NCBI GenBank assembly: GCA_036439915.1
Contig: GCA_036439915.1_3065.1
Length of the DNA stretch: 64,000 bases
Reading direction: 5' to 3' (one strand)
From: a phage
Shown here piece after piece: positions 19,363 to 42,701 of the stretch; within the stretch, counting starts at the first letter, position 1, and each line of letters starts with the position of its first letter. The notes under the pieces are model-generated. The model saw only the letters and a program-made list of their open reading frames with translations, was not told the origin of the DNA and searched no databases. The position numbers were made by a program, and so were the translations under genes.

Positions 19363-19440
19363 TTTATTCTCCTTTGTTTGTGTAAGATAATACTATCACA
19401 AAGGAACCATACTGTAAACAACTTTATGCAATCTTTGGAA

Positions 19441-19467
19441 AATAAAAAAGGACTCCCGAAGGAGTCC
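19441..19467 (-). terminator. intrinsic terminator downstream of 30.9-like ORF
   Basis: ggactcc-cgaa-ggagtcc hairpin followed on minus strand by T run. Confidence 0.75.
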
Positions 19468-19472
19468 TCAAC

Positions 19473-19649
19473 TTATGCTTTCTGCTTACCAAAACGAGAA
19501 GCATCATCTCGAAGAACCGCACGTGCTCGGCGCATGATCTTCTCAACAGTTTGATTGATACGAGAGTTCGACCCACGCTTGTAGCCAGCGCGTTTAGAAT
19601 CACCAACTTTCTTTTCAACTGCTTTCTTTGCTTTAGCTTGTTTTGCCAT
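19473..19649 (-). CDS. small lysine/arginine-rich protein (30.9 position)
   Basis: 58 aa from MAKQAKAKK; ORF-track 5' extension discounted. Confidence 0.55.
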   Translation of the reverse strand: MAKQAKAKKAVEKKVGDSKRAGYKRGSNSRINQTVEKIMRRARAVLRDDASRFGKQKA

Positions 19650-19892
19650 TATAAATTCTCTTTTAAATGAAAATGCAGGACTTATTGGCATTGCCTGCGC
19701 AAGCCCTCAAGGGGAACATAGGTTTTGGATATTTAACGACAGGATAACCATAAACCCGTCATCATTCACATTCAAGAGGTACACCATAAAACTGCCGGGG
19801 TCTTAAAACTATAATGATTCGCAAATCATTAATCAGACAGTTCGATGGCTCCTCGATTTTAGCTCACACTAAGGCAGTGAATCTCCAATAAA

Positions 19893-20141
19893 TTACTTCA
19901 GTGTTACCACAAAGTGACGAACTGCTTTTCGTGCAGCAGAAGCCAGAGGCTTAGCATACTTAAGTTCATCTTTTTCCTGAAGCTCAGCAGCTAATGCAGT
20001 TTGAGCAGGATTCAGATGTTTGAAATAACGCAGGATTTCAAGAGCTTCGGCTTCAACATCAATAGATGCGCCATAGTTTTCGTGACCATTATTCCATGCG
20101 TTTCGTTGCAGTTCAAGAGCGTGTTGTAATTGTTTAATCAT
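19893..20141 (-). CDS. rIII: rIII lysis-inhibition accessory protein
   Basis: 82-aa ORF recognised as T4 RIII. Confidence 0.9.
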   Translation of the reverse strand: MIKQLQHALELQRNAWNNGHENYGASIDVEAEALEILRYFKHLNPAQTALAAELQEKDELKYAKPLASAARKAVRHFVVTLK

Positions 20142-20288
20142 TTAAAAATTCTCGTTAGAGATTAAAACTCGGTAGTCACGTTCTTCTGAATTTCATCTTC
20201 TTTCGACAGATCTCTCAGTTGTAGACTACCACATAGAATTGTTCGGTTAACTTATTATTCCGACACCCAATTCATATTATTATTTATA

Positions 20289-41800: not shown

Positions 41801-42701
41801 TGATGAAACATCTAGTCATTTTTATTCTCAGCGCAATAAAGCCGGAAATATAACATTTAATATCAACGGTACAGTAACACCGATAAATGTTAATGCTTCA
41901 GGAACATTGAATGCAAATGGCGTAGCAACATTTGGTAATTCAGTCACTGCAACTGGTGAAATTATTTCTCGAAGCGCAAATGCTTTCCGTGCTATTAACG
42001 GAAATTACGGTTTCATTGTTCGCAATGATGGATCAGTAACGAATTTTATGCTTACTGCATCGGGTGATCAGACTGGTGGATTTAATGGATTACGCCCATT
42101 AGCTATTAATAATGCATCTGGCCAAGTAACGATTGGTGAAAGCTTAATCATTGCCAAAGGTGCTACTATAAATTCAGGTGGTTTGACTGTTAACTCGAGA
42201 ATTCGTTCTCAAGGTACTAAAACATCTGACTTATATACACGTGCGCCAACATCTGATACTGTAGGATTCTGGTCAATTGATATTAACGATTCAGCTACTT
42301 ATAACCAGTTCCCAGGTTATTTTAAAATGGTTGAAAAAACTAATGAAGTGACTGGTCTTCCATATTTAGAACGTGGCGAAGAAGTTAAATCTCCTGGTAC
42401 ACTGACTCAGTTTGGTAACACACTTGATTCGCTTTACCAAGATTGGATTACTTATCCAACAACGCCAGAGGCGCGTACCACTCGCTGGACACGTACATGG
42501 CAGAAAACCAAAAATTCTTGGTCAAGTTTTGTTCAGGTATTTGATGGAGGTAACCCTCCTCAACCGTCTGATATCGGTGCTTTACCATCTGATAATGCTA
42601 CAATGGGTAATCTTACTATTCGTGATTTCTTACGAATTGGTAATGTTCGCATTATTCCTGACCCAGTGAATAAAACTGTTAAATTTGAATGGGTTGAATA
42701 A
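38832..42701 (+). CDS. 34: long tail fibre proximal subunit gp34
   Basis: 1289-aa ORF, same length as T4 gp34; internal tandem repeats. Confidence 0.93.
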   Translation: MAEIKRKFRAEDGLDAGGDKIINVALADRAVGTDGVNVDYLIQENTVQQYDPTRGYLKDFVIIYDNRFWAAINDIPKPAGAFNSVRWRALRTDANWTTVSSGPYQLKSGESISVNTAAGNDITFTLPSSPIDGDTIVLQDIGGKPGVNQVLITAPVQSIVNFRGQQVRSVLMTHPKSQIVLIFSNRLWQMYVADYSREAVVVTPASLYQAQSNDFIVRRFTSASAINIKLPRFANHGDIINFVDLDKLNPLYHTIVTTYDETTSVQEVGTHSIEGRTSIDGFLMFDDNEKLWRLFDGDSKARLRIITTNSNIRPNEEVMVFGANNGTTQTIELQLPTDISIGDTVKISMNYMRKGQTVKIKAAGEDKIASSVQLLQFPKRSEYPPETKWVTVQELVFNGETNYVPVLQLAYIEDSDGKYWVVQQNVPTVERVDSLNNSTRARLGVIALATQAQANADLENSPQKELAITPETLANRTATETRRGIARIATTAQVNQDTTFSFADDLIITPKKLNERTATETRRGVAEIATQQETNTGTDDTTIITPKKLQARQGSESLSGIVTFVSTAGATPASSRELNGTNVYNKNTNNLVVSPKALDQYKATPTQQGAVILAVESEVIAGQSQEGWANAVVTPETLHKKTSTDGRIGLIEIATQSEVNTGTDYTRAVTPKTLNDRRATESLSGIAEIATQVEFDAGVDDTRISTPLKIKTRFNSTDRTSVVALSGLVESGTLWDHYTLNILEANETQRGTLRVATQVEAAAGKLDNVLITPKKLLGTKSTEAQEGVIKVATQTETVAGTSANTAVSPKNLKWIVQSEPTWAATTAVRGFVKTSSGSITFVGNDTAGSTQDLELYEKNSYAVSPYELNRVLANYLPLKAKAADSNLLDGLDSSQFIRRDIAQTVNGSLTLTQQTNLSAPLVSSSTATFGGSVSANSTLTISNTGTATRLIFEKGPQTGTNPAQTMTVRVWGNQFSGELDTTRSTVFEVSDETSSHFYSQRNKAGNITFNINGTVTPINVNASGTLNANGVATFGNSVTATGEIISRSANAFRAINGNYGFIVRNDGSVTNFMLTASGDQTGGFNGLRPLAINNASGQVTIGESLIIAKGATINSGGLTVNSRIRSQGTKTSDLYTRAPTSDTVGFWSIDINDSATYNQFPGYFKMVEKTNEVTGLPYLERGEEVKSPGTLTQFGNTLDSLYQDWITYPTTPEARTTRWTRTWQKTKNSWSSFVQVFDGGNPPQPSDIGALPSDNATMGNLTIRDFLRIGNVRIIPDPVNKTVKFEWVE
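40200..41320 (+). repeat. intragenic tandem repeats in gene 34
   Basis: repeated peptide motif (I/V)TPKKL..R.ATE(T/S)..G.A.IATQ at least 7 times. Confidence 0.7.

What the first reader, a model, noticed from the sequence alone, without database searches (positions are those of the whole stretch)
19650..19892. 240-bp GC-rich noncoding region between rIII and the 30.9-like ORF
No ORF of meaningful size lies on either strand. The stretch is visibly more GC-rich than the surrounding AT-rich genome and holds local inverted repeats (attaatgatt-tgcg-aatcattat; ccct-caa-gggg). A long structured leader or a small RNA is possible.
Basis: seen in the sequence. Interest (0 to 1): 0.5.

Follow-up and report, generated by a model that had tools for sequence, protein, structure and literature searches.

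The report
Conserved structured RNA spacer after rIII
The 243-base gap between the T4-type genes rIII and 30.9 is not junk or a promoter but a chain of conserved, independently folding RNA modules, including an undescribed pseudoknot and a worn copy of a bacterial antitoxin RNA (ToxI); this hints at an RNA-based counter-defence locus in the best-studied phage family.

Summary
The window is a T-even phage, 100% identical here to RB51. Bases 19650-19892 are the rIII-30.9 spacer, read on the minus strand and unannotated in T4.

- **Observation:** No ORF is conserved and both inverted repeats are real. The GC excess is trivial (0.39 vs 0.36).
- **Modular structure:** Homologous spacers are 120-416 nt long and built from shuffled RNA cassettes.
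- **Pseudoknot (PK):** One ~53-nt H-type pseudoknot (19766-19715) occurs exactly once in every spacer examined and in 777 phage records. Both helices covary. It has no Rfam match. In more distant T4-like phages it sits inside tRNA gene clusters, so it folds and travels independently.
- **ToxI-like unit:** The first ~37 nt after rIII (19890-19854) are a diverged single copy of the type III antitoxin ToxI. Sister phages carry nearly intact copies.
- **Other parts:** An ~80-nt covarying hairpin and two small hairpins before the 30.9 ribosome site complete the interval.
- **Best reading:** Autonomous structured RNAs, probably decoys or antitoxin mimics, carried on the rIII-30.9 transcript.
- **Rivals:** A leader for 30.9, or an mRNA stability or termination element.

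Function and expression are untested.

The parts
19893..20141 (-). rIII gene (82 aa), upstream neighbour; its stop codon begins the spacer
   Evidence: ORF list; T4 and RB51 annotation; PHROG 1457, lysis inhibition accessory protein
20281..20288 (-). TATAAATA, T4 late-promoter consensus between gene 31 and rIII; probable start of late transcripts that read through the spacer (inferred from the motif)
   Evidence: Pattern search; the same site is annotated as a late promoter in phage SA35RD
19854..19890 (-). Single, diverged ToxI-like pseudoknot unit (UUGGAGAUUCACUGCCUUAGUGUGAGCUAAAAUCG). Stem S2 is CAC 19879-19877 with GUG 19867-19865, intact. Stem S1 is GGA 19886-19884 with GCC 19875-19873; its third pair is A.G, broken.
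   Evidence: It is the positional homologue of the near-intact ToxI-like units in L013-L016 (34-35 positions identical to ToxI). The real toxI array was verified on an E. coli plasmid next to a ToxN/AbiQ toxin gene. Window against ToxI: 29 of 35 aligned positions identical, shuffle p about 0.0015. Stems are kept in the joint alignment. The unit is not significant in an unguided scan of the window.
19776..19854 (-). Module A2, an ~80-nt extended imperfect hairpin. GAGG 19854-19851 pairs with CCUC 19779-19776. Middle helix: GCCAU/AUGGU and GAACUGUC/GGCAGUUU, within 19849-19836 and 19796-19784. Apical A-U hairpin: 19833-19811. The module contains a GGAG motif.
Evidence: RNAalifold on 12 relatives: 25 pairs, 5 with compensatory double changes. 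It is lineage-specific, present in the T4 group and L009-L018 only.
19715..19766 (-). Universal H-type pseudoknot ('PK'). 5' tail AAUGAU; P1 GACGGG 19760-19755 with CCUGUC 19743-19738; L1 UUUAU; P2 GGUU 19749-19746 with AACC 19724-19721; L2 AU; A-rich L3 GUUAAAUAUCCAA 19737-19725.
   Evidence: Exactly one copy in each of the 34 distinct spacers over 50 nt. Covariance model R1 finds a single window hit at 65.3 bits, 43 loci hits and hits in 38 of 40 30.9-bearing loci. 777 phage records hold it, one place each. Covariation in both helices. Further P2 variants are GGUGUU/AACACC, GUAG/CUAC and GAUGG/CCAUC. No Rfam match.
19704..19714 (-). D1: small hairpin CCCCUUGAGGG followed by the conserved CUUG. 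It is a sequence-conserved cassette that sits 5' of PK in other lineages.
Evidence: Alignment; module map.
19675..19698 (-). D2: hairpin GCAGG-[CAAUGCCAAUAAGU]-CCUGC with a conserved loop, followed by the U-rich tract AUUUUCAUUU (19674-19665). Terminator-like but weak in this phage.
   Evidence: The stem covaries with the L017/L032 type (CAGG/CCUG against CUGG/CCAG) while the loop is kept. It was not called by the terminator scan. Other lineages carry stronger hairpin-plus-U-tract structures at the same place.
19650..19663 (-). Shine-Dalgarno-like AAAGAG (19663-19658) and spacer before the 30.9 start codon at 19649
   Evidence: Sequence; the T4 annotation starts 30.9 at this ATG
19473..19649 (-). 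Gene 30.9: a 58-aa, very basic protein of unknown function; downstream neighbour
   Evidence: ORF list; no Pfam family; PHROG 1427, unknown function
19448..19469 (-). Strong intrinsic terminator after 30.9 (9-bp stem, UUCG loop, U tract); end of the transcription unit (inferred)
   Evidence: Terminator scan. The sub-threshold Rfam hits at 19434-19517 are driven by this hairpin.

Best explanation
The interval is a transcribed, non-coding, modular RNA spacer inside the rIII-30.9 transcription unit. That unit runs from the late promoter at 20288 to the terminator at 19469-19448.

Reading 5' to 3' on the minus strand, it is a string of independently folding cassettes:
1. one worn copy of the ToxI antitoxin pseudoknot;
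2. an ~80-nt extended hairpin;
3. a ~53-nt H-type pseudoknot (PK) that is the invariant core of this locus in T-even phages;
4. two small hairpins and a U-rich tract ahead of the 30.9 ribosome-binding site.

Shown here: the structures are conserved with compensatory changes. The cassettes are gained, lost and reordered between related phages. PK also occurs on its own inside tRNA gene arrays of more distant T4-like phages. Sister phages carry near-intact ToxI units at this locus.

Inferred: the cassettes act as RNAs in their own right. After transcription, and probably nuclease processing, they would work as small structured decoys. These would be mimics of type III antitoxin RNAs that bind and blunt host RNA-targeting defence nucleases of the ToxN type. 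This would repeat the pseudo-ToxI strategy of phage PhiTE.

In this particular phage the ToxI-like unit is probably weak or vestigial. PK, with its target unknown, would be the active element.
For: - **Locus identity:** 100% identical to RB51 and 97.6% to T4, and unannotated in T4.
- **Non-coding:** Only 25-26-aa ORFs, broken by 1-nt indels.
- **No internal promoter; unit bounded by a late promoter and a terminator**.
- **PK occurrence:** One copy in each of the 34 distinct spacers over 50 nt. One hit in the 64-kb window. 777 phage records, one place each.
- **PK covariation:** 80% of cells paired, score 0.379 against 0.146 in shuffles, 0/500 shuffles as high, slid controls at most 0.14. P2 alone scores 0.315 against 0.158. 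At least nine different P2 sequence pairs are seen.
- **PK autonomy:** It lies co-oriented within or next to tRNA genes, without rIII or 30.9, in L046, L048, L084, L114 and L068. In L048 it fills a 58-nt slot between tRNA-Asp and tRNA-Pro. 30.9 exists without PK in L221. The distance from PK to the 30.9 start varies from about 55 to about 430 nt, with other cassettes in between.
- **Cassette shuffling:** The order of the ToxI-like unit, A2, B, E, PK and D1 differs among lineages.
- **ToxI link:** The L025-type unit is 93.5% identical to toxI repeats on 68 enterobacterial plasmids. That array was verified next to a ToxN/AbiQ toxin gene. L013-L016 carry 34-35 identical positions at the window's exact position. 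The joint alignment keeps both stems, with compensatory changes in S2.
- **Precedent:** A phage pseudo-ToxI RNA neutralises ToxN (PMC3475682). tenpI and cptI antitoxins are described as H-type pseudoknots with an A-rich stretch, which is the same architecture as PK (PMC12283969).
Against: - No expression or processing data for this interval were found or could be generated.
- The window's own ToxI-like unit is single-copy. It has one broken stem pair and lacks a 5' AAAU site. It is not distinguishable from chance in an unguided scan: 109 of 4262 window tiles score as high.
- Wild-type T4, with the same unit, is restricted by E. coli toxIN and escapes through the protein TifA (PMC9391042). The unit is therefore not sufficient protection against that system.
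- No bacterial or plasmid counterpart of PK was found by any route: blastn against plasmids and 5,426 E. coli genomes; a pattern scan of 185,579 species genomes, which gave only 6 chance hits; and a covariance-model search of a Yersinia plasmid reported to carry tenpIN.
- PK precedes 30.9 in 38 of 39 evaluable 30.9 loci, which also fits a cis role.
- P2 is only 4 bp in this phage, and an unconstrained longest-helix test does not beat shuffles.
Confidence: 0.42

Rival explanations
1. Cis-acting leader of gene 30.9. PK, with or without a ligand or a protein (for example the basic gp30.9 itself), controls the D1/D2 hairpins and the U-rich tract. This would attenuate transcription or mask the weak ribosome site, as riboswitches and autoregulated leaders such as T4 gene 32 do.
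For: - PK lies upstream of 30.9 on the same strand in 38 of 39 evaluable loci.
- Every lineage keeps a stable hairpin followed by a U/A-rich tract 9-27 nt before the start codon.
- In the window two mutually exclusive folds are possible for D1/D2: CCC..GGG against AGGGCUU/AAGUCCU.
- The H-type pseudoknot with an A-rich L3 has the topology of small riboswitch aptamers.
Against: - PK occurs without 30.9 in tRNA arrays, and 30.9 occurs without PK.
- 150-300 nt of unrelated cassettes (ToxI-like unit, module B) can lie between PK and the 30.9 site. That is unlike an aptamer coupled to an expression platform.
- No Rfam riboswitch match even at E = 10.
- The alternative AGGGCUU/AAGUCCU stem is not supported by covariation, whereas GCAGG/CCUGC is.
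- The terminator scan calls nothing in the spacer.
Confidence: 0.22
2. 3' untranslated region of rIII. The hairpins would serve as (leaky) terminators, RNase E, RNase G or RegB processing sites, and 3'-exonuclease barriers that set rIII and 30.9 mRNA half-lives.
For: - The spacer begins at the rIII stop codon.
- It contains two GGAG motifs (the RegB recognition motif, from the literature, PMC9409239) at 19886-19883 and 19851-19848.
- Annotators of phage SA35RD called the PK P1 hairpin a rho-independent terminator.
- Several lineages have convincing hairpin-plus-U-tract terminators before 30.9.
Against: - The invariant tract after P1 is GUUAAAU or GUAAAAC, which is A-rich and not a U run.
- Stability elements do not need a conserved pseudoknot with a covarying second helix, nor 20 or more conserved unpaired positions.
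- The same PK inside tRNA arrays has no rIII to stabilise.
Confidence: 0.2
3. Non-functional debris: remnants of cassettes left by recombination and mobile-element traffic at a recombination hotspot, with no present function in this phage.
For: - Presence/absence polymorphism of modules between near-identical phages.
- The window's ToxI-like unit is degraded.
Against: - PK is retained once per genome in 777 records at 80-100% identity and shows compensatory substitutions.
- A2 shows compensatory changes among very close relatives.
- T4-type genomes are tightly packed (general knowledge), so 243 nt of retained non-coding sequence is unusual.
Confidence: 0.1

Closest known systems
ToxI, the RNA antitoxin of type III toxin-antitoxin system ToxIN, and the 'pseudo-ToxI' of Pectobacterium phage PhiTE
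   Same: - A 36-nt pseudoknot unit with the same two short stems and the conserved GCUAC...AGUG core.
- It is phage-encoded and non-coding, with no toxin gene alongside, like PhiTE pseudo-ToxI (PMC3475682).
- Sister phages at this very locus carry 34-35 positions identical to ToxI.
   Different: - The window has one diverged copy, where toxI arrays have 2-5.6 tandem repeats and wild-type PhiTE has 1.5 (escape mutants have more) (PMC3401426, PMC3475682).
- One stem pair is broken, and the 5' AAAU processing site is missing.
- T4 with the same unit is still restricted by toxIN (PMC9391042).
- The unit is embedded among unrelated RNA cassettes rather than standing alone.
tenpI / cptI antitoxin RNAs (type III TA families TenpIN and CptIN)
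   Same: - PK is about 50 nt, against a tenpI repeat mean of 51 nt (PMC3401426).
- It is an H-type pseudoknot with stem 1, stem 2 and a conserved A-rich stretch in the 3' half. That stretch is placed to contact stem 1, as described for tenpI and cptI (PMC12283969).
   Different: - There is no tandem repeat and no adjacent toxin gene.
- No sequence similarity to anything in plasmids, E. coli genomes or 185,579 species genomes.
- No tenpI sequence could be obtained for a direct comparison, so this is a resemblance of architecture only.
T4 stable RNAs C and D (species 1 and 2) of the tRNA gene cluster
   Same: They are small phage-encoded RNAs of unknown function, co-transcribed with tRNA genes. 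PK occupies exactly such slots in other T4-like phages.
   Different: There is no PK match in the T4 tRNA/rnaC/rnaD region with model R1. The sequences are unrelated by eye. In T-even coliphages PK lies at rIII-30.9, not in the tRNA cluster.
Small H-type pseudoknot riboswitch aptamers (preQ1-I, SAM-II) and the T4 gene 32 autoregulatory leader pseudoknot
   Same: A compact H-type pseudoknot with an A-rich third loop, located upstream of a small gene.
   Different: No Rfam hit. The distance to the gene is variable and interrupted by other modules. PK occurs away from any regulated gene. Recalled sequences of these elements show no similarity (my own knowledge, not tested).

Membership tests
ToxI (type III antitoxin RNA, ToxIN family) | Sequence similarity to the 36-nt toxI repeat | tested here: inconclusive
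   For the window unit taken as a pre-specified segment, 29 of 35 aligned positions are identical, shuffle p about 0.0015. In an unguided scan of the window, 109 of 4262 tiles score as high, and blastn of the spacer finds no toxI. The feature is clearly met by the positional homologues in L013-L016 and by L025-L031 (34-35 and 29-30 identities; 93.5% identity to plasmid toxI).
ToxI (type III antitoxin RNA, ToxIN family) | Pseudoknot: two short interlocked stems kept by covariation | tested here: inconclusive
   In the joint alignment of plasmid ToxI and phage units, 95% of cells are paired and stem 2 is 100% paired, with two covarying pairs. In the window stem 2 is intact, but stem 1 has 2 of 3 pairs (A.G at the third). 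The stem assignment is my inference from covariation. It was not checked against the crystal structure.
ToxI (type III antitoxin RNA, ToxIN family) | Tandem array of about 2 or more repeats between a promoter and a terminator, followed by the toxin gene | tested here: not met
   The window has a single copy, no repeat and no toxN-like gene; the neighbours are rIII and 30.9. This is expected for a phage mimic but rules out membership as a TA locus.
ToxI (type III antitoxin RNA, ToxIN family) | ToxN processing sites (AA^AU) flanking a 36-nt unit | tested here: not met
   The 3' site is present (GCUAAAAUCG). The 5' side reads UAAUUUAUUGG, with no AAAU. Phage L198 has both sites. The cleavage motif is taken from the literature and my own knowledge.
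ToxI (type III antitoxin RNA, ToxIN family) | Binds and inhibits ToxN | not testable with these tools
   This needs co-expression or biochemical assays. Published work shows that wild-type T4 is restricted by toxIN (PMC9391042).
TenpI / CptI-type antitoxin RNA | H-type pseudoknot of 40-57 nt with a conserved A-rich stretch after stem 1 | tested here: met
   PK has a P1 of 6 bp, a P2 of 4 or more bp and a 13-nt A-rich L3, with about 53 nt conserved in total. The feature description comes from PMC12283969 and PMC3401426. It is an architectural feature only.
TenpI / CptI-type antitoxin RNA | Tandem repeats upstream of a TenpN or CptN toxin gene, or sequence similarity to such repeats | tested here: not met
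   PK is present once per genome. No similar sequence was found in plasmids, E. coli genomes, GTDB species genomes or Yersinia plasmid p153kb. No bona fide tenpI sequence was available for direct comparison.
Intrinsic (rho-independent) terminator | G+C-rich hairpin immediately followed by a U run | tested here: not met
   The scan finds terminators only at 19469-19448 and 19511-19495, and none in the spacer. The PK P1 hairpin is followed by GUUAAAU or GUAAAAC. D2 is a 5-bp stem with a 14-nt loop followed by AUUUUCAUUU.
Any Rfam 15 family (riboswitches, sRNAs, ribozymes, tRNA-like) | Covariance-model match | tested here: not met
   There are no hits in the spacer at E <= 10 apart from one noise hit (enod40, E = 3.9). 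ARAGORN finds nothing. Caveat: Rfam 15 has no ToxI model, because a genuine toxI array gives no hit.
Promoter region (sigma-70, T4 late) | -35/-10 hexamers or TATAAATA on the transcribed strand inside the interval | tested here: not met
   There are no sigma-70-like sites in 19650-19892. The nearest TATAAATA is at 20288-20281. MotA-box middle promoters were checked by eye only.

The most novel reading that the evidence does not exclude
The rIII-30.9 spacer of T-even phages is an 'RNA anti-defence island'. It would be a recombination-shuffled array of heterologous decoy RNAs: ToxI mimics, the universal PK, the 139-nt module B and others. Each would neutralise a different host RNA-binding or RNA-cleaving immune protein.

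PK would then be a new class of phage small RNA. It is excised from mRNA or from tRNA arrays, and it is conserved from coliphages to Pectobacterium phage PM2 and, probably, Aeromonas-type T4-like phages.
Probability: 0.28. Interest if true: 0.85.

Novelty: new variant of a known kind. Interest (0 to 1): 0.66.

Why it matters
T4 and its relatives are the reference system for phage biology, yet this 243-nt interval is blank in the T4 annotation.

- **If the modules are functional RNAs:** T-even phages would carry a previously unrecognised class of non-coding genes. One of them (PK) is present once in each of 777 sequenced phages.
- **The ToxI link:** It gives a concrete, testable hypothesis that RNA mimicry of type III antitoxins is widespread in T4-like phages. 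So far this is known from a single Pectobacterium phage. It may also extend to other defence nucleases.
- **Experiments it opens:** The covariance model and coordinates given here make the question directly testable by northern blots, deletions, toxin-rescue assays and RNA pull-downs.
- **Module B:** This 139-nt module, found in sister phages, is a further strong candidate structured RNA with no known family.
- **Practical use:** The modules explain much of the length polymorphism (120-416 nt) at this locus, and they should be annotated.

Tried and rejected
- **Rfam.** Scans of the window region and of eight related loci gave nothing real. Rfam cannot see ToxI, as the control shows.
- **Replication origin.** T4 oriE lies near repEA/repEB, not here (PMC3016281). 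Rejected.
- **T4 stable RNAs C and D.** They are unrelated in sequence, and model R1 finds no hit in that region.
- **Long-range pairing.** The single-sequence fold pairs the 5' end with the D2 loop. The 5' part is deleted or changed in relatives without compensation. Rejected.
- **Short ORFs and a leader peptide (AUGAUG before P1).** Frames differ between relatives. Rejected.
- **PK P1 hairpin as a terminator (SA35RD annotation).** The tail is A-rich. Rejected.
- **Direct ToxI-versus-window scan.** Not significant. The two better-scoring sites (42121-42240 on the plus strand, about 12190 on the minus strand) look like chance matches; the first lies inside a 1289-aa ORF, and the context of the second was not checked.
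- **Bacterial counterpart of PK.** I tried blastn against plasmids and E. coli genomes, a pattern scan of species genomes, and Yersinia plasmid p153kb, which is reported to carry tenpIN. In that plasmid the tenpIN locus was not identifiable from annotation or tandem-repeat search, and R1 found no hit.
- **Module B against plasmids.** No match.
- **Longest-helix shuffle test for P2.** Uninformative, because short A/U/G-U helices arise by chance and my instance finder picked up false positives. I relied on fixed-column covariation instead.
- **Literature.** Ten searches found no paper describing this spacer, a T4 RNA here, or ToxI-like sequences in T-even phages. Supplements with tenpI sequences were not held.

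Full report
**Identity of the locus.** The interval 19650-19892 is 100% identical to phage RB51 and 97.6% identical to T4, and 768 phage records hold a related sequence. All genes here lie on the minus strand. rIII is 19893-20141 and gene 30.9 is 19473-19649. T4 carries no annotation in the gap. RB51 annotates 30.9 with a 14-codon N-terminal extension into the gap. The start codon of that extension is lost in related phages.

**Check of the observation.**
- No ORF longer than 26 aa lies in the gap. Single-base indels between close relatives (window against L003 against T4) shift every frame. The sequence is therefore non-coding.
- The GC claim is weak. GC is 0.391 against 0.356 for the window, 17% of equally long tiles are as rich, and both neighbouring genes are richer.
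- Folding of the single sequence is only marginally better than shuffles: z = -1.94 on the sense strand and -1.55 on the antisense strand.
- No sigma-70-type promoter, late promoter, intrinsic terminator, tRNA or Rfam family is found inside the gap.

**Transcription context (inferred from motifs).** A late-promoter consensus lies at 20288-20281, upstream of rIII. The same site is annotated as a late promoter in phage SA35RD. A strong terminator follows 30.9 at 19469-19448, and an early-promoter-like site for 30.8 follows at 19418-19390. The gap therefore sits inside a unit of rIII, spacer and 30.9.

**Comparative anatomy.** I fetched 40 loci through the rIII protein. From these I extracted the rIII-30.9 spacers, which gave 34 distinct sequences over 50 nt, ranging from 120 to 416 nt. 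The alignment shows blocks that are present, absent or reordered between lineages:
- a ToxI-like unit;
- an ~80-nt hairpin (A2);
- a 139-nt module B, absent from the window;
- a ~45-nt module E, absent from the window;
- the pseudoknot PK;
- the small hairpin D1;
- a final hairpin with a U/A-rich tract before the 30.9 ribosome site.

**The pseudoknot (PK).** Every one of those spacers has exactly one copy of a ~53-nt motif anchored on an invariant CGUWAAA. In the window it lies at 19766-19715:
- P1: GACGGG with CCUGUC;
- loop: UUUAU-GGUU-AU;
- A-rich linker: GUUAAAUAUCCAA;
- AACC, which pairs with the loop GGUU to form P2.

A covariance model built from 29 sequences finds one hit in the 64-kb window, 43 hits in related loci, and hits in 38 of 40 loci fetched through the 30.9 protein.

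On the model-based alignment, 80% of cells are paired. Eight of 13 pairs show changes on both sides. The covariation score is 0.379 against 0.146 in shuffles (0/500 as high), and 0.07-0.14 when partners are slid. P2 alone gives 0.315 against 0.158, and its pair at columns 20 and 49 switches between G-C (24 sequences) and A-U (11).

Relaxed pattern scans added members with new P2 sequences: GGUGUU/AACACC, GUAG/CUAC and GAUGG/CCAUC.

Two caveats apply. The sequences are related, so shuffle counts are not probabilities. P2 is only 4 bp in this phage, and an unconstrained helix search does not beat chance.

PK is found once per genome in 777 phage records, including T4 at 130603-130661, and is almost never annotated.

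**PK is autonomous.**
- In viral contigs without rIII or 30.9 nearby, PK lies co-oriented within or beside tRNA genes. In L048 it fills the 58-nt slot between tRNA-Asp and tRNA-Pro. In L084 it directly follows tRNA-Met. In L046, a 173.6-kb genome that I believe is an Aeromonas phage, it lies inside a 16-tRNA array. L114 and L068 are similar.
- Conversely, L221 has a 30.9 homologue directly after gene 31, with neither rIII nor PK.
- The distance from PK to the 30.9 start ranges from about 55 to 430 nt, with other cassettes in between.
- These facts argue against an aptamer-plus-platform design. They favour a self-contained RNA that can be released, for example by tRNA-processing enzymes.
- The tight linkage of PK with 30.9 inside the Tevenvirinae (38 of 39 evaluable loci) keeps a cis or partner role open.

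**The ToxI link.**
- In L025-type phages the stretch immediately 3' of PK is 93.5% identical to a repeat present 3-10 times on 68 small enterobacterial plasmids.
- In pNMEC-O75B this repeat is the 36-nt toxI array (AGGTGATTTGCTACCTTTAAGTGCAGCTAGAAATTC), followed by a terminator and a ToxN/AbiQ toxin gene.
- L013-L016 carry a unit with 34-35 identical positions directly after the rIII stop. The window carries its diverged positional homologue at 19890-19854.
- The window unit shares 32 of 36 aligned positions with the L014 type and 29 of 35 with ToxI, shuffle p about 0.0015.
- A joint alignment of plasmid and phage units keeps two interlocked 3-bp stems in 95% of cells. Stem 2 is always paired, through UGC/GCA, CGC/GCG, CAC/GUG, AGC/GCU and UAC/GUA.
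- In the window stem 2 is intact, one pair of stem 1 is broken, and the 5' AAAU site is missing.
- Taken alone, the window unit is not distinguishable from chance, and blastn finds nothing. Its identification therefore rests on the intermediates.
- Rfam has no ToxI model.
- Published work shows that a phage pseudo-ToxI RNA can neutralise ToxN (PMC3475682). It also shows that wild-type T4 is nevertheless restricted by toxIN and escapes through the protein TifA (PMC9391042, PMC10853763). None of these papers, nor a study of T4-like Serratia phages (PMC5449768), mentions this locus.

**Other parts of the window.**
- Module A2 (19854-19776) folds into an extended hairpin with 25 consensus pairs, 5 of them with compensatory changes among 12 close relatives.
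- D1 (19714-19704) is conserved more in sequence than in pairing, and it moves to the 5' side of PK in other lineages.
- D2 (19698-19675) keeps its loop while its stem covaries (CAGG/CCUG against CUGG/CCAG). A U-rich tract follows it. Stronger terminator-like hairpins occupy this place in other lineages.

**Interpretation.**
- Shown: a conserved, non-coding, modular, structured RNA region; a new pseudoknot motif specific to T4-like phages; and a degraded ToxI homologue.
- Inferred: the modules act as RNAs in their own right, most plausibly as decoys for host RNA-targeting defence nucleases. The grounds are the ToxI homology at this locus, the antitoxin-like architecture of PK (an H-type pseudoknot of about 50 nt with an A-rich stretch, as described for tenpI and cptI in PMC12283969 and PMC3401426), and the cassette-like turnover typical of counter-defence loci.
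- Against this reading: no bacterial counterpart of PK was found, T4 is sensitive to toxIN, and there are no expression data.
- I put this reading at about 0.42, a 30.9 leader at 0.22, an rIII 3'-UTR, processing or termination element at 0.20, and functionless debris at 0.10.

**Novelty.** Nothing corresponding to PK, A2 or module B exists in Rfam 15. I found no paper in the held library that describes them or a ToxI-like RNA in T-even phages. The library lacks much of the older T4 literature, so prior description cannot be excluded. I rate the finding as a new variant of a known kind: phage-encoded structured or antitoxin-mimic RNAs.

Noticed in passing
L025:2366-2504 (also L012, L013, L015, L019, L021, L023-L031, L061, L089, L095, L102, L198); absent from the window: Module B is a ~139-nt, highly conserved RNA (GGCAAGUGCAUGCUACC...GCUAACGGUGUGCAACAGAUAAGAG) inserted in the rIII-30.9 spacer of many sister phages. 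RNAalifold gives 40 pairs, 16 with compensatory changes, in a multi-stem junction. It has no Rfam hit and no plasmid match. It is present or absent between near-identical phages. It is a strong candidate for a new structured ncRNA.
   Followed up: partly
L003:2350-2420, L008, L009-L018; loop of the last hairpin in L020: Module E is a ~45-nt cassette (AUCAYGCGUCAGMAAAAGGUUAKCUGUSUAAG) that occupies the same insertion point as module B. It contains a small covarying hairpin, CAGA/UCUG against CAGC/GCUG.
   Followed up: no
L048:6797-6849, L046:2099-2144, L114:9146-9178, L084:831-884, L068:1359-1411: The pseudoknot motif sits inside or beside tRNA gene arrays of more distant T4-like phages. In three cases it is next to tRNA-Pro(UGG). 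In L046 it is followed by a sequence that starts like the ToxI-like units (UUCAGUGCC...).
   Followed up: partly
window 19650-19691: RB51's annotation starts gene 30.9 at 19691, giving 72 aa. T4 starts it at 19649, giving 58 aa. The upstream ATG is lost (ACG) in L009-type phages and lies inside the conserved D2 hairpin loop, so the long form is probably a mis-annotation.
   Followed up: partly
L221:1100-1400: A divergent T4-like phage has a 30.9 homologue (44% identity) directly after gene 31. The spacer is 50 nt, with no rIII and no pseudoknot.
   Followed up: no
L198:880-925: A ToxI-like unit lies directly after the rIII stop and has AAAU motifs on both sides, about 36 nt apart (AAAUCAGGUGAUACGCUACCUUAAGUGCGAAGCUAAAAU). 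It is the best candidate in the set for a unit that ToxN could process.
   Followed up: no
L041 and L042:1918-1970: In the 149.5-kb contig the pseudoknot lies upstream of a match to only the C-terminal half of rIII (residues 43-82). This suggests a rearrangement or an assembly artefact.
   Followed up: no
L048:3462-3704: There is a group I intron match (59 bits, above the gathering score) in the same metagenomic T4-like contig that carries the tRNA array.
   Followed up: no
window 19390-19418 and 19448-19469: An early-promoter-like site (TTTACA-17-TAGTAT with TG) for gene 30.8 lies immediately after the strong terminator of 30.9. This is a tidy unit boundary. The sub-threshold Rfam hits Atu_C8 and Phe_leader at 19434-19517 are driven by this terminator.
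   Followed up: no
H11 and H20 (phages EC101, NBEco003): In two GenBank records the homologous spacer is annotated as '1,4-alpha-glucan branching enzyme, GH-13-type'. This is almost certainly an automatic mis-annotation of the non-coding region.
   Followed up: no
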